Source: Escherichia phage vB_EcoM_MM02
Reading direction: 5' to 3' (one strand)
Length of the DNA: 64,000 nucleotides
Sequence record: MK373784.1
Shown: piece after piece, positions 2 to 53,782 of the stretch
Numbering within the stretch: position 1 is the stretch's first letter
How the letters are laid out: every line of letters starts with the position of its first letter
Made by a program: the position numbers and the translations under genes
Notes under the pieces: model-generated
Databases searched by the model: none
What the model was told of the DNA's origin: nothing
What the model saw: only the letters and a program-made list of their open reading frames with translations

Positions 2-640
2 AATAGTTCAGCAATAAATGACATTAATCTTGAGCTCAATCAATCCGGTGGTATTAAACCTCGTTTGACTACAGTAGAAACTGCCATTGGCGCTGATGAT
101 TTGCCTACTACAATCCAAGGACGTATTAAACTCAATACTGATGCTATCGGAGCATTGAACACTGTTGTCGGCTCTGATTCTTCGTCAGGACTGCGTTTTA
201 ATGTGTCATGGTTAAATAACGTAGTAGGTGTTGACGCTTCAGGTGGGAAACCGGAACCAGACGGCTCTTTGCTTTATCGTACTCGAGAGCTTGAAGGAAC
301 TATCAGTGGGATGAGTAATGACATCCAGAACATTCAAACTGATGTTGGGACTAATTCCACAGGAATTAAGGGTTCTGTAAACACATTAAATACTCTTATA
401 AACGGCACCAACCCAAATGGTTCGACTGTTGAAGAACGCGGTATATTGCCTACAGTTAAAAGTCATGATACGACAATTAATGGTTTAACTTCTAGAATTG
501 CTACTCTTGAAACTGATTTGGCCGCTGCAGAAGCTGAAATCCAAACTCTTAAGGACGCTGGATATATTGAAGATGCTCCTTCAGACGGTAAATTCTATGT
601 TCGCAAAGATGGTGCATGGGTTGAACTTCCTACAGCTTAA
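2..640 (+). CDS. wac: fibritin (whisker antigen), C-terminal part; 5' end upstream of window
   Basis: Frame open from position 2 to TAA at 638-640; C-terminus GYIEDAPSDGKFYVRKDGAWVELPTA is a foldon-type trimerisation motif; followed by neck genes in T4 order. Confidence 0.85.
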   Translation, partial: NSSAINDINLELNQSGGIKPRLTTVETAIGADDLPTTIQGRIKLNTDAIGALNTVVGSDSSSGLRFNVSWLNNVVGVDASGGKPEPDGSLLYRTRELEGTISGMSNDIQNIQTDVGTNSTGIKGSVNTLNTLINGTNPNGSTVEERGILPTVKSHDTTINGLTSRIATLETDLAAAEAEIQTLKDAGYIEDAPSDGKFYVRKDGAWVELPTA

Positions 641-646
641 TGAAAA

Positions 647-660
647 GGGCCTTCGGGCCC
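647..660 (+). terminator. hairpin (gggcc-ttcg-ggccc) after wac
   Basis: GC stem with UUCG tetraloop between wac and 13. Confidence 0.5.
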
Positions 661-672
661 TAAAGGATTTAT

Positions 673-1599
673 ATGTCAGGTTATAATGCACAAAACCCTA
701 AAGAATTAAAGGATGTAATATTACGTCGTTTAGGCGCTCCTATTGTAAATGTTGAATTAACTACAGACCAAATTTATGATTGTATTTCACGAGCGTTAGA
801 ACTTTATGGCGAATACCATTTTGACGGGTTGAATAAAGGTTTCCATGTATTTTTTGTTGACGACGAAGAAAAATACCGTCACGGCATATTTGATATGCGT
901 GGTTCTAATGTATTTGCTGTAACAAGAATTATAAGAACAAACGTTGGCTCTATTACTTCAATGGATGGTAATGCAACTTATCCATGGTTCACTGATTTCC
1001 TTTTAGGAATGGCAGGTGTTTCAGGTGGTATGGGTAGTAATTGTGGTAAATTCTACGGTCCGAACGCTTTTGGCGCTGACCTCGGGTATTATTCTCAATT
1101 AGTATCTTATATGGGTATGCTTCAAGATATGATTGCTCCTCTTCCAGATTTTTGGTTTAACTCTGCAAACGAGCAATTAAAAGTAATGGGTAACTTTAGA
1201 CAGAAAGATGTCATTATCGTTGAATCGTATGTTCGCTCTTATATCGAGACCCATAAGATGGTAGGAAATACAGTAGGGTACGGTCAGGTTGGTCCTCGTG
1301 ATTCATGGTCTATTTCTGAACGTTATGATAATCCAGACCATAATTTGGTAGGACGTCGAGTTGGTGAAGACCCTGCAACTAAACAAGGCGCATATAACAA
1401 CCGCTGGGTTAAAGATTATGCAACTGCATTAGCTAAAGAGCTTAATGGACAAATTCTTGCTAAACATCAAGGTATGATGTTACCTGGTGGCGTCACTGTT
1501 GATGGTGTTCGATTAATTGAAGAAGCTCGTTTAGAGAAAGAAGCTTTACGAGAAGAGTTATATTTACTGGACCCTCCTGCAGGTATTTTGGTAGGTTAA
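673..1599 (+). CDS. 13: neck protein gp13
   Basis: 308 aa (T4 gp13 about 309 aa); position between wac and 14. Confidence 0.85.
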
Positions 1600-31480: not shown

Positions 31481-31668
31481 TAATCCACAATCGGAAGCAA
31501 AGTACGATAAACTTCAAAATTATAGCCTTTTTCGTACTTATCGAAATTGTCCATAAAAATATGATAGGAATCGTTATTAGGAAAATCTAATATAATCTGA
31601 GAGCAAGAGGTGGAAACATCTCCACCATCCTTCTTAGCTACAATAACTGTTTCTAAATAAGCTTTCAT
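31480..31668 (-). CDS. hypothetical small protein between ligase and alt
   Basis: 62-aa ORF from ATG at 31668 whose start overlaps ligase stop (TAATG); terminator directly after its stop. Confidence 0.5.
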   Translation of the reverse strand: MKAYLETVIVAKKDGGDVSTSCSQIILDFPNNDSYHIFMDNFDKYEKGYNFEVYRTLLPIVD

Positions 31669-33161
31669 TATAAACCTGTCTGGGACCACGGTCCAAATAC
31701 GTCTTCAAACGAATCCGCTTCTGTTTTATCAAAACGGAACCCTTTAATAATTGGGAGGAAAATACCTACAGTACCTTCACGGCCTTTAGAATGAACCCAA
31801 CCATTACATTCACAATCAGCGATACGTCCAATTAATTTACCTTCACGAGCTTCGGTCATTAATCGTTCACGGTCTAAATCATGACGCTCGTCTAAAGGAA
31901 TAAGAACCTTTACACCGTCAACTGTTTTATGAGTTGTATCTTTAAAACCTGAACCGCAATCGGTTGTAATACGACGACAACGTGATACGAGTTCGACACC
32001 ACCTAATTTGTTAGGGTCTTTAGAGTGTTCATAGTATCCTACAACTTCTAAAGCGATATCAATAACTTCTTTAAATTTAATTAGGTTCTTAGAACGTTTG
32101 TTTTCCCAATATGAATCACGGTTTTTAAGGATAATACCTTCAAGACCTTGGTCAACATATTTTTTATAAACCACTTTAGCTTCGTCAAGATTACGAACTA
32201 ACTGATTTTCAATTGGCTCAATTCGTTTAAAGCCTTCGGCCATATTTTCAAGAGCAGCAAAACGAACATCGTATTTCTGACCTTTAATTTTGCCATCAGA
32301 ATAGACTTCATCTAAAGGAACATAGTCCCAGGCTTGAAGAACCATACCTTCCGCTTCTTTAGGAGAAATAGTCCCTTGAAGAGATTTATTTGCTAAACCG
32401 TTTGAAGTGCTACGGTCCGCAACTTGTACTTCTTCGGATTCTTCATTATCACCAAATAAGAACGACAGATCATTTCCTGAGCTCACAGCCTTTTTAATAT
32501 CAAATGAATGGTAAACTAATTCACCGTCGATTAAAACCCCATTAGGGTGTCTTTCACGAGCTTCTTTAGTCATTTCCATTAGTTCATCCGCTAATAGGGT
32601 AAGACCATGGTATTCATTACCAGCACGAGAAAAGAATTGAACACCATCATCGCGAACTTCAGCGAAACAACGAGCGCCGTCTGCTTTTAATTGGGCAAAT
32701 GCAGGCCATTTAATATTTTTAGTAATCAATTTCTCATCATATGCAGATGCTAACATCTGTGGCTGCAATTGAATAAGTCCAGGCCACACCTTATTCGCGA
32801 TAGACACTGAAGCACCTACTTCAAGGTCTCGCATCATTACACGACGAAGGACTTCTACATCATCAGGTTTACCGTCAGCGATATAACCCATGAGCTCTTT
32901 AATTGCAGCATTACCAGTGAGTTTACGAGTGGCTAATGTGAACTCAATAAAATCCAACATGTCATCTAATTCAAGAAGACCATATGCTTGAGACCTTTCA
33001 CCTGGTCCTGGCCATTTCTTAATATAATACTGGATACCGCGTGCATATGTTAAACGATACACACGTTCAAGTAATTTGTTGTCCTTATTTTTCTTAAGGA
33101 TTTCTTGTTTTGTTTTAGTAGAACCGATCGCAGCTATTTGGTTTAAAATATCTAAAATCAT
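31668..33161 (-). CDS. 30: ATP-dependent DNA ligase gp30
   Basis: 497 aa; N-terminus MILDILNQIAAIGSTKTKQEILKKNKDN and adenylation motif KADGARCFAEV match T4 DNA ligase. Confidence 0.95.
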   Translation of the reverse strand: MILDILNQIAAIGSTKTKQEILKKNKDNKLLERVYRLTYARGIQYYIKKWPGPGERSQAYGLLELDDMLDFIEFTLATRKLTGNAAIKELMGYIADGKPDDVEVLRRVMMRDLEVGASVSIANKVWPGLIQLQPQMLASAYDEKLITKNIKWPAFAQLKADGARCFAEVRDDGVQFFSRAGNEYHGLTLLADELMEMTKEARERHPNGVLIDGELVYHSFDIKKAVSSGNDLSFLFGDNEESEEVQVADRSTSNGLANKSLQGTISPKEAEGMVLQAWDYVPLDEVYSDGKIKGQKYDVRFAALENMAEGFKRIEPIENQLVRNLDEAKVVYKKYVDQGLEGIILKNRDSYWENKRSKNLIKFKEVIDIALEVVGYYEHSKDPNKLGGVELVSRCRRITTDCGSGFKDTTHKTVDGVKVLIPLDERHDLDRERLMTEAREGKLIGRIADCECNGWVHSKGREGTVGIFLPIIKGFRFDKTEADSFEDVFGPWSQTGL

Positions 33162-33427
33162 TTGATGTCCTCGATTTTGGTTACGGTTCTATTATAAGCC
33201 ACTTCATCTAGAAGCGATTTCAACGTTTTCTGATAAGTGGTAATCCATTTACCGAGCCCTTCAACATAGTATTCTGAAATGTAGATGAACCCTTGTTCAA
33301 CACACTCTTTAAATATTTCTGCGTCTTTTACTGAACGAAATAAGGGCCAGTCTCGAAAGAACATGTTAACGTGACCGTAGTCACGCGTTGTGTTTTTGCC
33401 ATCTGTAATATCATGAACTACAAACAT
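33158..33427 (-). CDS. hypothetical protein
   Basis: 89-aa ORF, ATG start, stop overlaps ligase start. Confidence 0.55.
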   Translation of the reverse strand: MFVVHDITDGKNTTRDYGHVNMFFRDWPLFRSVKDAEIFKECVEQGFIYISEYYVEGLGKWITTYQKTLKSLLDEVAYNRTVTKIEDIK

Positions 33428-33436
33428 AATTGACCC

Positions 33437-34261
33437 TTAACAATTTATAGACCAAGTCCATTTAGACGAATCTAAAGGAAAGTTTTGAATCGTCCACCAC
33501 GGCTGCATATCAGTTGGTCCTGGGGTTCGCCAGGTATATGGAGTACGTGTTGTCGAGGGGCCACCAATTTGATTAGGCCATGCACCTGGACTTGTTGCAC
33601 CAGATTCTTTAAGCAAATCCGCCAATCGTTTTAAAAGGTCTTCATGATCTGAATCTGAATTATTCTTAGGCAGAACCAAACGAGATTCAATATCATCCCA
33701 TGTGTGTACACGTTGTGCAGTGCGAGGAATATCATCACGTTCACCACGAGCCAACCAATAAATCGGTACATTAAGAATTTCTGCCGCATGGTCACAATGA
33801 TGAGCTAAATCGTCAACGTAACAAATTACGTTATATTTTGTTTTAGCTAGTTCGAATAATTGTTCCTTTGAAGAATCATGACCACACATCATTACTTCAG
33901 AGAAAGCGCCTGGGAACAAAGCATTCAAATTAAATTGTCTATTCAATCGAGCATCAATTGAATCACCTAGCGCCGTCACGGCTACAAAATTATAGTCTTC
34001 TTTTAGTTTATTGATAACTCGAAGAGCATCAGAATAAGGCGCTAAGTAACGAATAAAATCAGAGCTATTATATTTTTCTATTAATTGTTTACCAAGGTTA
34101 TCGTCGGTATTGAACAGTTTACCAGGAGAAATAAATTTTTCGTCCTGAATCATTTTTAAAATATGTTCTAATGGAAGGTTATATTTTTGGGCAAAATAAG
34201 GAAGTCCAGATTGCCAGCTTAAACATACACCATCAATATCAGTCAAAATAGTAGGCTTCAT
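33437..34261 (-). CDS. HAD-superfamily hydrolase, NT5C-like putative (deoxy)nucleotidase, with Trp/Pro-rich C-terminal tail
   Basis: 274 aa; HAD motif I DIDGV near N-terminus, motif IV-like YVDDLAHH; unusual C-terminus AWPNQIGGPSTTRTPYTWRTPGPTDMQPWWTIQNF. Confidence 0.6.
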   Translation of the reverse strand: MKPTILTDIDGVCLSWQSGLPYFAQKYNLPLEHILKMIQDEKFISPGKLFNTDDNLGKQLIEKYNSSDFIRYLAPYSDALRVINKLKEDYNFVAVTALGDSIDARLNRQFNLNALFPGAFSEVMMCGHDSSKEQLFELAKTKYNVICYVDDLAHHCDHAAEILNVPIYWLARGERDDIPRTAQRVHTWDDIESRLVLPKNNSDSDHEDLLKRLADLLKESGATSPGAWPNQIGGPSTTRTPYTWRTPGPTDMQPWWTIQNFPLDSSKWTWSINC

Positions 34262-34716
34262 AAAGAGTCTCTTAATAGGTTTAACACGTCAATAAATTCA
34301 TCTTCAGTTAGTATTGTATCATCTTTTGTTAGGTGGCTGGCCATGCTGTGCTTCAAAATTTTTCCTTTAGAGGCTTGTAAGGCATCGCGAAACCCCTTGT
34401 TTTGGATCGCGGCTTCAAAATATGCATTTGTGTATAATTCTTTCCACGCTTCAGAGTATCTTGAAAATGGAACTCCTAACCAGAAGAGAGTCCCACGGTC
34501 CTGAGCTCTTGCGTAAGACCTTCCAGCTTGCTGTGCAACCAATCCAGACAACCCAAATATACGTCTTTGTTGTTCAACATTTTTCACCTTACATCCTTGG
34601 AGAAATCCTTCAAGACCTCCGAATTGAATACCATCCATAACAAAAGGCCATTGAGCAAAGTTACTTAATGCACATGACGGCCACTTGAAATTACTTCTTA
34701 TTTCTAATTCAGACAT
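34258..34716 (-). CDS. NADAR-domain (YbiA-like, DUF1768) protein
   Basis: First ATG at 34716 (track start is GTG at 34725); segment LSNFAQWPFVMDGIQFGGLEGFLQGCK resembles the YbiA/NADAR signature; ATGA overlap with downstream gene. Confidence 0.55.
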   Translation of the reverse strand: MSELEIRSNFKWPSCALSNFAQWPFVMDGIQFGGLEGFLQGCKVKNVEQQRRIFGLSGLVAQQAGRSYARAQDRGTLFWLGVPFSRYSEAWKELYTNAYFEAAIQNKGFRDALQASKGKILKHSMASHLTKDDTILTEDEFIDVLNLLRDSL

Positions 34717-34927
34717 CTTTAACACTTATAATTTCAACATCAGCCCAATGTCCGTATCCAGGTATACGGTCTTCGATAGATAAATTTCTGTCATTTTTAG
34801 GCATTTTAATTGACGTAACGTATGGTTCTAAACGGTTTTCCGCGTAATATGGAAAAACGTCGGTTACACGATAAGTAACTTCAATCATTTCCGTACCAAA
34901 CAATTTCTGGATTAATTTATTCAACAT
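34709..34927 (-). CDS. hypothetical protein
   Basis: 72-aa ORF with ATG start. Confidence 0.5.
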   Translation of the reverse strand: MLNKLIQKLFGTEMIEVTYRVTDVFPYYAENRLEPYVTSIKMPKNDRNLSIEDRIPGYGHWADVEIISVKDV

Positions 34928-52793: not shown

Positions 52794-53447
52794 TTAATAC
52801 TTACATGATTTGATTGTTTCTATGAACAATTTCTTAGCAACATTTCCATCGATTTGAAGTATTTTTCGATATGCCTTTAATTTGGTAGAATAATTTTGCC
52901 AGACTAAGTTATCGGTGAGTTCGTCGTGCTTATCTATAATATTCAAAAACGAGTCCAACAATAAGAAAGTTTCAAATGAAATTATATTGCTTTGTAGCAA
53001 TTTAAATATGTAGCTCGACTGAACGTTGTTATTATAATCAAATATCTCTTGAAGCGCACTAACTTCAACTTTCTTACTGAAATAGTAGATGTTACGTACG
53101 TCTTCAGCAAACGTCTCCTTGGCTTGTTTGAGACGTCCAATATATTCCCTATAGAAAACTAATGCATCAGCGTCTGATATCTCACCAATCCATGCGTCTT
53201 GGTTAGCAACTAAGTTGCTTATGAATATCAAGGTGAGTTCCTTCAATTTATATTTCTCTGCTAGTTTTTCAAAGAAATATTTATCTCGGCGTTTTTGATA
53301 CGCATTATCCGAAACACGCATGCACCAGTTATATTTGATTACGTCATACCGACCATTAAAATGTTGTTTGCACATCAAGTATAGTTTGTATACCGATTTT
53401 CCGTTAATATAACGTTCTCCATCAGGAGGCATGCGTATTTTAATCAT
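52794..53447 (-). CDS. 59: helicase loader gp59
   Basis: 217 aa, same as T4 gp59. Confidence 0.9.
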   Translation of the reverse strand: MIKIRMPPDGERYINGKSVYKLYLMCKQHFNGRYDVIKYNWCMRVSDNAYQKRRDKYFFEKLAEKYKLKELTLIFISNLVANQDAWIGEISDADALVFYREYIGRLKQAKETFAEDVRNIYYFSKKVEVSALQEIFDYNNNVQSSYIFKLLQSNIISFETFLLLDSFLNIIDKHDELTDNLVWQNYSTKLKAYRKILQIDGNVAKKLFIETIKSCKY

Positions 53448-53782
53448 AATAAGAAATCTAACGTATTAGTTTTTTCACCACGAGCAACTGATGGGCGAAG
53501 CATGTTTTCGTCAATTGCTTCGCTTGTAATTTTTTCAACAATTCCTGTAGGAATAAATTTAGCAAATTGTGTTTCTGGAATAGAATTTTCTTCCAAGAAA
53601 GCAGTTGTTGCTTCTAAATAAGACATACCAAATTGTTCAACCATGGATTCGATAATGAATCCGTTTTCTTGTCGGTCAAGCAATTTAGCGATATCATCTT
53701 TATCGTGTTTTACTGCTAATTCTTGTTCAGATAAACCGGCCTCATCAACCGGTTTAATATCACTTAGTGAAAACTGTGTCAT
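53444..53782 (-). CDS. 33: late transcription co-activator gp33
   Basis: 112 aa, same as T4 gp33; ATGA overlap with 59. Confidence 0.85.
   Translation of the reverse strand: MTQFSLSDIKPVDEAGLSEQELAVKHDKDDIAKLLDRQENGFIIESMVEQFGMSYLEATTAFLEENSIPETQFAKFIPTGIVEKITSEAIDENMLRPSVARGEKTNTLDFLL

What the first reader, a model, noticed from the sequence alone, without database searches (positions are those of the whole stretch)
33437..34261. HAD/NT5C-like hydrolase with an unusual Trp/Pro-rich C-terminal extension
The N-terminal part has HAD motif I (DIDGV) and a motif IV-like YVDDLAHH, reminiscent of 5'(3')-deoxyribonucleotidases. The last 55 or so residues (GATSPGAWPNQIGGPSTTRTPYTWRTPGPTDMQPWWTIQNFPLDSSKWTWSINC) are low-complexity, Trp/Pro/Thr-rich and unlike the catalytic domain. 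This could be a targeting or binding module, or a sign of a frameshift or gene fusion.
Basis: partly seen in the sequence, partly recalled or inferred. Interest (0 to 1): 0.45.

Follow-up and report, generated by a model that had tools for sequence, protein, structure and literature searches.

The report
Phage HAD phosphatase with disordered tail
This is the RB69/T4-type phage gene 30.2, an uncharacterised HAD-fold phosphatase whose Trp/Pro-rich end is a real, selected, disordered tail that probably docks onto a partner, and is not a sequencing error.

Summary
ORF 33437..34261 (-) encodes 274 aa with all four HAD motifs. Its last ~55 residues are the most Trp-rich stretch in any open frame of the window.

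The gene is the Mosigvirus (RB69-like) orthologue of T4 gene 30.2 (phrog_420). It lies between 30.3 (AdfN, a NADAR anti-DarT factor) and 30.1 plus the DNA ligase gene.

AlphaFold2 gives a confident C1-capped HAD core (residues 1-195), a helix (203-220) and a disordered tail (221-274).

The tail is not a frameshift or an assembly artefact:
- About 142 phage records keep it in frame.
- Variants differ by a 9-nt in-frame indel.
- dN/dS is 0.25 in the tail and 0.07 in the core.
- All six Trp were invariant in the 12 genomes examined.
- Only the annotated frame shows an excess of synonymous changes.

Half of the gp30.2 cluster representatives carry long Trp/Pro-rich tails and the rest have none. 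Short boxes such as TWRTPG recur across genera. One box, GIEY[LW]xNQPT, is absent from this window. It also occurs in an unrelated small protein family beside the ligase gene of Salmonella phage 7-11-like phages.

The best reading is a phosphatase, possibly a nucleotidase, with a disordered docking tail. The substrate and the partner are unknown. Interest is modest.

The parts
33437..34261 (-). Gene 30.2 coding sequence (274 aa plus TAA), the orthologue of T4/RB69 gp30.2
   Evidence: ORF list. phrog_420 at E 2.6e-78. tblastn matches in 1438 phage records, 99% identical in Mosigvirus and about 70-75% in T4-type phages. Synteny 30.3-30.2-30.1-30 in RB69, JS09 and JS98.
33677..34261 (-). HAD catalytic core with a C1 helical cap, residues 1-195
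34226..34240 (-). HAD motif I, DIDGV (D8 nucleophile, D10)
   Evidence: D8 and D10 are invariant in 94 homologues. The motif lies at the end of strand 4-7.
33965..33985 (-). HAD motif II region, VAVTALG (T96)
   Evidence: T96 is kept in at least 90% of homologues and A97 is invariant. It lies at the end of strand 91-96.
33860..33874 (-). HAD motif III region, SSKEQ (K132)
   Evidence: K132 is invariant. It precedes helix 133-142.
33797..33820 (-). HAD motif IV, YVDDLAHH (D150, D151)
   Evidence: D150 and D151 are invariant. They lie at the end of strand 145-150.
33602..33676 (-). Linker plus charged helix, residues 196-220 (helix SDHEDLLKRLADLLKES, 204-220)
   Evidence: AlphaFold2 helix 203-220; 10-residue block mean pLDDT 65 for residues 201-210 and 82 for 211-220. 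An equivalent long helix, 194-221, appears in the Enterobacter-phage-type homologue P0027. dN/dS 0.34.
33440..33601 (-). Disordered Trp/Pro/Thr-rich tail, residues 221-274
   Evidence: 10-residue block mean pLDDT 43-56 across the tail. dN/dS 0.25 and all six Trp invariant in 12 Mosigvirus genomes. Ten synonymous-only variable codons in frame 0, against 3 and 1 in the other two frames.
33572..33586 (-). Box 1, GAWPN (aromatic-W-P)
   Evidence: FPW/WP occupies the same place in T4 (FPWN), P0002 (FPWP) and the Enterobacter/Klebsiella-phage-type relatives (YQWPP).
33515..33538 (-). Box 2, YTWRTPGP
   Evidence: TWRTPG is identical in T4 and P0002 even though DNA similarity to T4 stops near residue 192. 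In-frame local score 52 against a shuffle mean of 30.5 (sd 5.8, max 47). A loose box-2 pattern occurs in 20 of 50 long tails and in 0 of 94 cores. PWRNPG occurs in phage 7-11 gp042. It is the only W[RK]xPG in six frames of the window.
33494..33505 (-). Box 3, QPWW (PW[YW])
   Evidence: It aligns with RPYW, KPWY and EQWY in other genera.
33440..33466 (-). Mosigvirus-specific terminus, SKWTWSINC
   Evidence: It is found only at gp30.2 ends in Mosigvirus genomes. HX01 and ESCO47 carry a different Trp/Tyr/Pro-rich segment here. It takes the place of the GIEY[LW]xNQPT box seen in T4 and other genera.
34258..34725 (-). Upstream neighbour, gene 30.3 (AdfN, NADAR); its TGA overlaps the 30.2 ATG
   Evidence: Pfam Phage_30_3 at E 2e-69, covering 1-138 of 138 model positions. 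Function taken from PMC11825919. Full length like T4, unlike RB69.
33158..33427 (-). Downstream neighbour, gene 30.1 (DUF3045)
   Evidence: Pfam DUF3045 at E 1.4e-26. Fused to a tail-less gp30.2 in P0016.
31668..33161 (-). Gene 30, ATP-dependent DNA ligase
   Evidence: ORF. Annotated as DNA ligase in the syntenic relatives.

Best explanation
The ORF is the Mosigvirus orthologue of T4 gene 30.2. Its first 195 residues form a Mg-dependent HAD-type phosphatase with a helical C1 cap. The cap and the catalytic residues are highly conserved. The nearest characterised relatives by sequence are 5'(3')-deoxyribonucleotidases. A nucleotide-like phosphomonoester substrate is therefore the best guess (inferred, not shown).

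A charged helix follows the core, and then a tail of about 54 residues that is translated and intrinsically disordered. Selection acts on its aromatic and proline content and on a few short boxes (AWP, TWRTPG, PWW), not on a fold. Tails of this kind are an optional, fast-evolving accessory of gp30.2 in enterobacterial T-even phages. I infer that the tail works as a flexible docking or assembly arm. It would hold the phosphatase near a partner in the DNA replication, ligation or nucleotide machinery of the infected cell. It is not part of the catalytic machinery and it is not an artefact.

Shown: gene identity, HAD fold and motifs, reality of the tail, selection on the tail, predicted disorder. 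Inferred: substrate class, docking role, identity of the partner.
For: Gene identity:
- phrog_420 at E 2.6e-78.
- 1438 phage records match.
- Synteny with 30.3, 30.1 and ligase.

Enzyme:
- Invariant D8, D10, K132, D150, D151 and near-invariant T96.
- AlphaFold2 core block means mostly 89-98.
- The top PDB sequence hit is cytosolic deoxyribonucleotidase, and the DGVxxx[WF]xSGL stretch aligns with it.
- Phage '5' nucleotidase' models are among the viral structural neighbours.

The tail is real:
- About 142 records cover at least 80% of it in one in-frame piece.
- A 9-nt in-frame indel separates variants.
- dN/dS is 0.25, against 0.07 in the core.
- Frame 0 has 10 synonymous-only variable codons, against 3 and 1 in the other frames.
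- All six Trp are invariant.

The tail is disordered: block mean pLDDT is 43-56 here and 37-52 in the distant homologue P0027.

Cross-genus conservation without DNA similarity:
- TWRTPG is shared with T4.
- The distal 50 residues of 50 long-tailed cluster representatives average 4.8% Trp and 14% Pro, against 1.3% and 4.4% in the cores.

Portability of tail boxes:
- A profile of GIEYLxxQPT-type tails, searched against 1.84 billion proteins, found one non-HAD protein, P0101, at E 5e-5.
- P0101 belongs to phrog_38244, the family of Salmonella phage 7-11 gp042, which reads PWRNPGAGGIEYWYNQPT.
- The reciprocal profile picks out exactly that box in 19 gp30.2 tails.
- In 7-11-like phages the gene overlaps the 3' end of the ligase gene.
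Against: - No experiment or paper on gp30.2 was found.
- Sequence matches to curated HAD and NT5C models fall below their cut-offs, so the substrate is open.
- The portable GIEY box is absent from this window's tail. The link to the 7-11 family therefore rests here only on the 5-residue WRxPG box.
- 39 of 94 cluster representatives lack a tail. Within Mosigvirus the terminal third has been swapped for another segment. The tail is therefore dispensable for the enzyme and could be only weakly functional.
- The neighbourhood with ligase amounts to two independent lineages at most.
- AlphaFold2 'disorder' may partly reflect a poor alignment in the tail.
Confidence: 0.6

Rival explanations
1. The tail is a tolerated, essentially functionless extension. 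It would have arisen by stop-codon loss into the 30.2-30.1 spacer and drifted since. Its odd composition would be incidental.
For: - 39 of 94 homologue clusters end right after the core. JS98 gp30.2 stops 2 nt before 30.1.
- Turnover is rapid: DNA similarity to T4 ends near residue 192 and the terminal segment is replaced in HX01 and ESCO47.
- The tail is predicted to be disordered.
- dN/dS is higher than in the core.
Against: - dN/dS of 0.25 is well below 1, with a frame-specific excess of synonymous change, and all six Trp are invariant in 12 genomes.
- The same Trp/Pro enrichment recurs in 50 independent cluster representatives.
- TWRTPG is kept between genera with no DNA similarity.
- A tail box is shared with an unrelated protein family.
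Confidence: 0.2
2. The tail folds on binding or oligomerisation into a small Trp-rich beta structure (WW-like or Trp-zipper-like), or it folds back over the active site as a regulatory lid.
For: By eye, the Trp spacing (W244, W255/256, W268/270) and the T4-type G-x-E-Y-L-Y-N-R-P-T resemble WW-domain strands. This is a lead from memory only. The helix at 203-220 could place the tail near the core.
Against: - No Pfam hit at E up to 10 for five tails.
- No PDB sequence hit for the tail profile at E up to 10.
- AlphaFold2 gives block mean pLDDT below 57 in the tail for two distant family members, with no strands there.
- Prolines lie inside the putative strands.
Confidence: 0.12
3. The tail is an artefact. 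A sequencing or assembly frameshift, or a mis-joined pair of genes, would have produced a spurious C-terminus.
For: Only the unusual composition, plus the existence of shorter homologues in other genera.
Against: - The same frame is found in about 142 independently sequenced phage genomes, including the RB69 reference.
- The indel between variants is 9 nt and in frame.
- Out-of-frame translations of the T4 and HX01 tails show no similarity.
- T4 gp30.2 is 278 aa with a homologous tail.
- No separate tail-like ORF exists in tail-less phages or elsewhere in the phage collection.
Confidence: 0.02
4. The conserved feature is the DNA or an overlapping gene, not the tail peptide. Candidates are a promoter for 30.1/30 or a small ORF on either strand (33472..33600 -, 33485..33634 +).
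For: The G+C-rich stretch leaves other frames open. TATAAAT at the very end of the gene is a 7-of-8 match to the T4 late-promoter consensus TATAAATA (consensus from memory; sequence seen).
Against: - The alternative frames have 3 and 1 synonymous-only variable codons, against 10 in the gp30.2 frame.
- TATAAAT is broken (TACAAAT) in several close relatives.
- The promoter and terminator scan is at background: 5 promoter-like sites found against 5.5 expected.
Confidence: 0.03

Closest known systems
T4 gp30.2 (UniProt gene y12F, 'uncharacterized 32.4 kDa protein in Gp30-rIII intergenic region'; phrog_420) and RB69 gp30.2
   Same: Orthologue. It has the same position between 30.3 and 30.1/30 and the same HAD core (about 74% identity to T4, 95-99% to Mosigvirus relatives). 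The architecture is the same: core, helix, aromatic/Pro-rich tail with TWRTPG.
   Different: The T4 tail is Tyr/Pro/Asn-rich and ends with the GGIEYLYNRPT box. This window's tail is richer in Trp, lacks that box and ends in SKWTWSINC. Neither protein has a tested function.
5'(3')-deoxyribonucleotidases cdN/mdN (Pfam NT5C, PF06941; PDB 2jao, 1mh9, 2i7d)
   Same: HAD fold with a four-helix C1 cap. They share the DxDGV motif I followed by an aromatic residue and SGL (W16-Q-S-G-L here, F-E-S-G-L in cdN). They are the best PDB sequence hit and among the best Foldseek hits, with TM-score up to about 0.6-0.7 on the target.
Generic HAD subfamily I phosphatases and dehalogenases (Pfam HAD_2 PF13419, Hydrolase PF00702)
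   Same: All four catalytic motifs and the capped Rossmannoid fold.
   Different: The HAD_2 score is 16 bits against a cut-off of 23.8. The cap sequence (WQSGLPYFAQKYNLP, KYNxSDFIRYLAPY) is specific to this family and nearly invariant.
phrog_38244 (Salmonella phage 7-11 gp042 and relatives)
   Same: These proteins carry the tail boxes PWRNPG and GGIEYWYNQPT found in T-even gp30.2 tails. The boxes are followed by Gly/Gln-rich low-complexity sequence. The gene lies in a ligase/exonuclease neighbourhood.
   Different: They are small (105-152 aa), with a helical N-terminus, a CPxCG...GAHxC knuckle and no HAD domain. The window tail shares only the WRxPG box with them and not the GIEY box.
T4 polynucleotide kinase/phosphatase (PseT), phosphatase domain
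   Different: It is a capless HAD fused to a kinase and acts on 3'-phosphate ends of nucleic acids. There is no sequence similarity beyond the motifs.

Membership tests
HAD superfamily | Motif I DxDx[TV] at the end of strand 1 | tested here: met
   D8-I-D10-G-V follows strand 4-7. D8 and D10 are invariant in 94 homologues.
HAD superfamily | Motif II Ser/Thr at the end of strand 2 | tested here: met
   T96 lies at the end of strand 91-96 and is kept in at least 90% of homologues.
HAD superfamily | Motif III Lys and motif IV acidic pair (DD) | tested here: met
   K132, D150 and D151 are invariant.
HAD superfamily | Rossmannoid core with a cap inserted after motif I (C1) | tested here: met
HAD superfamily | Score above the curated Pfam or NCBIfam cut-off | tested here: not met
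   HAD_2 scores 16 bits against a cut-off of 23.8. The NCBIfam hit is only at E 0.09. Among 94 relatives the best E-values are 1e-4 (Hydrolase) and 0.002 (NT5C). Membership rests on the motifs and the fold.
HAD superfamily | Mg-dependent phosphoryl transfer through an aspartyl-phosphate intermediate | not testable with these tools
   This needs an enzyme assay with D8N and D10N controls.
NT5C 5'(3')-deoxyribonucleotidase family (PF06941) | Significant match to the family model | tested here: not met
   No NT5C hit for the window protein at E up to 1. 17 of 94 relatives hit at E between 0.002 and 0.1.
NT5C 5'(3')-deoxyribonucleotidase family (PF06941) | Closest solved relatives are deoxyribonucleotidases | tested here: inconclusive
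NT5C 5'(3')-deoxyribonucleotidase family (PF06941) | Aromatic cap residue after motif I that stacks on the base (Phe in mdN/cdN; role recalled from the literature) | tested here: inconclusive
   Invariant W16 aligns with the Phe of DGVLADFESGL in 2jao. The alignment itself is weak.
NT5C 5'(3')-deoxyribonucleotidase family (PF06941) | dNMP phosphatase activity | not testable with these tools
   This needs an assay.
T-even gp30.2 family (phrog_420) | Profile match and conserved position between 30.3 and 30.1/ligase | tested here: met
   E 2.6e-78 over residues 1-259. Synteny.
Proteins carrying the GIEY[LW]xNQPT box (T4-type gp30.2 tails, phrog_38244) | Presence of the box | tested here: not met
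   The phrog_38244 profile finds the box in 19 gp30.2 tails but not in the window protein. There is no box-4-like match in six frames of the window.
WW domain | Match to the domain profile, or a predicted three-stranded sheet | tested here: not met
   No Pfam hit at E up to 10. No PDB hit for the tail profile. No strands and low pLDDT in the tail.

The most novel reading that the evidence does not exclude
The Trp/Pro-rich tails of gp30.2 are built from portable short linear motifs (WRxPG, PW[YW], GIEY[LW]xNQPT). Unrelated phage proteins would use these motifs to dock onto one common partner of the replication/ligation apparatus. Candidates are the phage ligase, gp32, or host SSB-type assemblies rich in Gly/Gln/Pro/aromatic residues. 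A nucleotide phosphatase in T-even phages and a small zinc-knuckle protein in 7-11-like phages would then be recruited to the same place. The Mosigvirus terminus (SKWTWSINC) would be a lineage-specific replacement for the GIEY box.
Probability: 0.2. Interest if true: 0.55.

Novelty: new member of a known kind. Interest (0 to 1): 0.3.

Why it matters
Gene 30.2 is conserved in more than 1400 sequenced T4-like phage records, yet no function has been reported for it. It sits next to an experimentally proven anti-defence gene (30.3/AdfN) and close to the DNA ligase gene. Three results make it a tractable target. The odd tail is genuine and selected. It is optional across lineages. At least one of its boxes is shared with an unrelated phage protein family near ligase genes. 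Tail peptides can be used as bait and tail-less natural variants as controls. The practical gain here is a corrected annotation: HAD-fold phosphatase with a disordered C-terminal arm, not a frameshift. The finding is not a new class of system.

Tried and rejected
- WW-domain or Trp-zipper mini-domain: the Trp spacing and G-x-E-Y-L-Y-N-R-P-T looked WW-like. No Pfam or PDB profile match was found and no structure was predicted. Rejected.
- Sliding-clamp-binding motif: the clamp-binding role of the gp33 C-terminus is recalled from the literature. gp33 in this window ends in TLDFLL, and the T4 box IEYLY loosely resembles it. The box is not C-terminal and is absent from this window. The idea is untestable here and was dropped.
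- Frameshift relation between tail variants: out-of-frame translations of the T4 and HX01 tails show no similarity. The HX01/ESCO47 end is a replaced segment, not a shifted frame.
- Tail as a module on other phage proteins: tblastn with two tail types finds gp30.2 loci, one place per record, apart from one E=7 match in a Pseudomonas phage, which I take as chance. A word-indexed search with the window tail returned a single fragment of the same gene. Only the exhaustive profile search found the phrog_38244 link, and that link concerns a box this window lacks.
- Host mimicry of the GIEY box: the exact pattern for EYWYNQPT has 0 matches in 185,579 bacterial and archaeal genomes.
- Overlapping ORF or promoter in the tail: rejected.
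- Literature: no paper on gp30.2/y12F function was found. The AdfN paper mentions 30.2 only as a neighbour.
- The afdb50 fold library was unavailable.
Full report
**What is there**

The window is a piece of a Mosigvirus (RB69/JS09-like T-even phage) genome. A 1.57-kb stretch around the finding is 94-99% identical to more than 140 Mosigvirus records and about 84% identical to T4-type phages.

ORF 33437..34261 on the minus strand encodes 274 aa. It matches phrog_420 at E 2.6e-78. By tblastn it is found in 1438 phage records. In RB69, JS09, JS98 and others the matching gene is annotated 30.2.

The neighbours fit this identity:
- Upstream is 30.3 (Pfam Phage_30_3, E 2e-69). Its TGA overlaps the ATG of 30.2.
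- Downstream are 30.1 (DUF3045) and then the DNA ligase gene 30.

**Checking the observation**

DIDGV is at residues 8-12 and YVDDLAHH at residues 148-155. The last 55 residues are 10.9% Trp and 14.5% Pro, against 1.4% and 4.1% in the rest of the protein. No other 55-residue stretch in any open frame of at least 90 aa in the window reaches six Trp. The description is correct and the composition is exceptional for this genome.

**The catalytic part**

In an alignment of 94 homologues, D8, D10, K132, D150 and D151 are invariant and T96 is nearly so. A large part of the cap is also conserved: W16, S18, L20, Y64, N65, S67, Y72, L73 and D78.

AlphaFold2 gives a confident model for residues 1-195, with block mean pLDDT mostly 89-98. 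The order of strands and helices is that of a C1-capped Rossmannoid HAD. The motifs sit at the ends of strands 1, 2 and 4 and before helix 133-142.

Structural and sequence comparisons:
- Foldseek finds solved HAD enzymes at E about 5e-7. The 5'(3')-deoxyribonucleotidases are among the best matches.
- By sequence, the only PDB match is mouse cytosolic deoxyribonucleotidase, at a non-significant E of 0.18-0.23. The alignment pairs DGVCLSWQSGL with DGVLADFESGL.
- Curated family models are not reached. HAD_2 scores 16 bits against a cut-off of 23.8. There is no NT5C hit for this protein, and 17 of 94 relatives give weak NT5C hits.

I therefore file it in the HAD superfamily on motifs and fold. 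I treat 'NT5C-like nucleotidase' as the most likely working analogy, not as established membership.

**The tail is real**

- tblastn with the 54-residue tail finds it in one in-frame piece covering at least 80% of its length in about 142 phage records, including the RB69 reference.
- Variants differ by a 9-nt in-frame indel, GGPSTTRTPYTW against GAPSNPYTW.
- In 12 Mosigvirus genes with this tail type, Nei-Gojobori dN/dS is 0.07 for the core, 0.34 for the linker/helix and 0.25 for the tail.
- Variable codon columns that are purely synonymous number 10 in the annotated frame, against 3 and 1 in the other two frames.
- All six tail Trp are invariant.
- T4 gp30.2 (278 aa) has a homologous tail in the same frame. 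It shares TWRTPG, although nucleotide similarity between the two phages stops near residue 192.
- Out-of-frame translations show nothing.

A frameshift, an assembly error and an overlapping gene are all excluded as far as sequence data allow.

**What kind of tail**

AlphaFold2 predicts a helix at 203-220 and no structure after it, with block mean pLDDT of 43-56. A second model was made with a clean sub-family alignment for the distant homologue P0027 from Enterobacter/Klebsiella-type phages. It gives the same picture: a long helix at 194-221 and then pLDDT below 50 over most of the tail.

Among the 94 cluster representatives:
- 50 have at least 60 residues after the core.
- 39 have 41 or fewer, and 5 are intermediate.
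- The distal 50 residues of the long tails average 4.8% Trp and 14% Pro, against 1.3% and 4.4% in the cores.

The tails are otherwise very diverse, but short boxes recur at equivalent places:
- an aromatic-W-P box;
- W[RKV]xPG[PF]xD;
- PW[YW];
- in T4 and the Enterobacter/Klebsiella/Citrobacter-phage relatives, a strongly conserved GTGIEYLxxQPT box near the end.

Other lineages end in LRAYY-type or ALLGM-type sequences. A few carry quite different C-terminal modules or are fused to gp30.1. Within Mosigvirus, HX01 and ESCO47 have replaced the last third by another Trp/Tyr/Pro-rich segment.

This pattern points to a disordered arm bearing short linear motifs. It is optional and fast-evolving, it conserves composition and motifs rather than a fold, and it is under moderate purifying selection.

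**A link outside the family**

A profile of the GIEYLxxQPT-type tails was searched exhaustively against 1.84 billion representative proteins. It found only two proteins at E of 1e-3 or better. One is a gp30.2. The other, P0101 (E 5e-5), has no HAD domain.

P0101 belongs to phrog_38244, the family of Salmonella phage 7-11 gp042. That protein reads ...GIPWRNPGAGGIEYWYNQPTAIGGQ.... Members of this family are 105-152 aa. They have a helical N-terminus, a CPxCG...GAHxC knuckle, the box, and a Gly/Gln-rich end.

The reciprocal profile picks out exactly the box in 19 gp30.2 tails.

In phage 7-11 and in two related contigs the gene overlaps the 3' end of an ATP-dependent DNA ligase gene. In a fourth contig it follows a 5'-3' exonuclease gene.

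The exact EYWYNQPT pattern is absent from 185,579 bacterial and archaeal genomes. So the box is not an obvious copy of a host motif.

At least one tail box is therefore portable between unrelated phage proteins that sit in ligase/replication neighbourhoods. This supports the 'binding module' idea for the family.

There is an important limit. The window's own tail lacks this box. It shares only the WRxPG box with the 7-11 protein. Its terminus, TIQNFPLDSSKWTWSINC, is specific to Mosigvirus.

**Most likely mechanism**

Shown: a HAD-fold enzyme with an intact catalytic tetrad, and a translated, selected, disordered tail.

Inferred:
- The enzyme dephosphorylates a nucleotide-like small molecule. 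The cap is highly conserved, and an invariant Trp aligns with the base-stacking Phe of the deoxyribonucleotidases. That role is recalled from the mdN/cdN literature.
- The tail tethers the enzyme to a partner or an assembly in the replication, ligation or nucleotide-supply machinery.

Neither the substrate nor the partner can be named from these data.

The main rival is that the tail is a tolerated extension with little function. It is hard to square with the invariant Trp, the frame-specific constraint and the cross-genus motifs, but it cannot be excluded (about 0.2).

**Comparison with what is known, and novelty**

No paper on the function of gp30.2 was found. The only mention found is as the neighbour of 30.3/AdfN in PMC11825919. 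Several GenBank records already label the gene 'HAD-like'.

This is therefore a further member of a known but uncharacterised phage HAD family. The tail has been in the databases since RB69 was sequenced. What this work adds:
- evidence that the tail is genuine and under selection;
- the anatomy of core, helix and disordered arm;
- the motif map;
- the shared box with phrog_38244.

**Verdict**

The finding is an ordinary gene with a real and mildly intriguing appendage. The artefact reading is refuted, the HAD reading is confirmed, and the binding-module reading is plausible. Interest 0.3.

Noticed in passing
window 34258..34725 (-): The upstream gene is 30.3, also called AdfN. It is the NADAR DNA ADP-ribosylglycohydrolase that T-even phages use against the DarTG1 defence system (PMC11825919). 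In RB69 it is truncated by a T insertion. In this window it is full length like T4: ACTAACTGAAG here against ACTAACTTGAAG in RB69. This phage should therefore be DarTG1-resistant, unlike RB69.
   Followed up: partly
P0016 (302 aa; sequence): This protein is a natural fusion of a tail-less gp30.2 core with gp30.1 (DUF3045). It hints that the products of 30.1 and 30.2 act together. It was seen only on short metagenomic contigs.
   Followed up: no
L027 2489..2860 (Salmonella phage 7-11 gp042); also P0101-P0108, L028, L031: phrog_38244 proteins are small, with a CPxCG...GAHxC knuckle. They carry the GIEYWYNQPT box of T4-type gp30.2 tails, and some also carry PWRNPG. The gene overlaps the end of the DNA ligase gene in three of four contexts.
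   Followed up: partly
L008 (HX01) 401..1237 and L020 (ESCO47) 541..1377: Two Mosigviruses carry a different terminal tail segment, ...PHWRYTNVGEHPVPPYWAVPQGYGTTKG. This is a segment replacement, not a frameshift. No 30.3 is annotated in ESCO47, where two short CDSs occupy that position.
   Followed up: partly
P0065/P0067 (Yersinia phage phiR1-RT type) and P0080: Some gp30.2 homologues carry quite different C-terminal modules, of about 110 and about 150 residues. The one in P0080 is Cys-rich. The C-terminus of this enzyme appears to be a hot spot for module exchange.
   Followed up: no
window 33440..33451 (-), TCTATAAATTGT: The last codons of 30.2 contain TATAAAT, a 7-of-8 match to the T4 late-promoter consensus TATAAATA (recalled from memory). 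Close relatives read TACAAAT, so it is not conserved.
   Followed up: partly
L032 796..1842 (-) and L036 511..1551 (-): Two G+C-rich IMG/VR contigs, one of 135 kb, encode a protein of about 346 aa containing VEYWYNQPTC inside a helical region. A 410-aa ORF beginning MGIPYY..., which I take to be an XRN-like exonuclease (not tested), lies next to it. This is probably a chance match to the box.
   Followed up: no
window 53444..53782 (-): gp33 of this phage ends in ...NTLDFLL. This is the C-terminal tail by which T4 gp33 is reported to bind the sliding clamp (role recalled from the literature). I looked at it only for comparison with the tail boxes.
   Followed up: no
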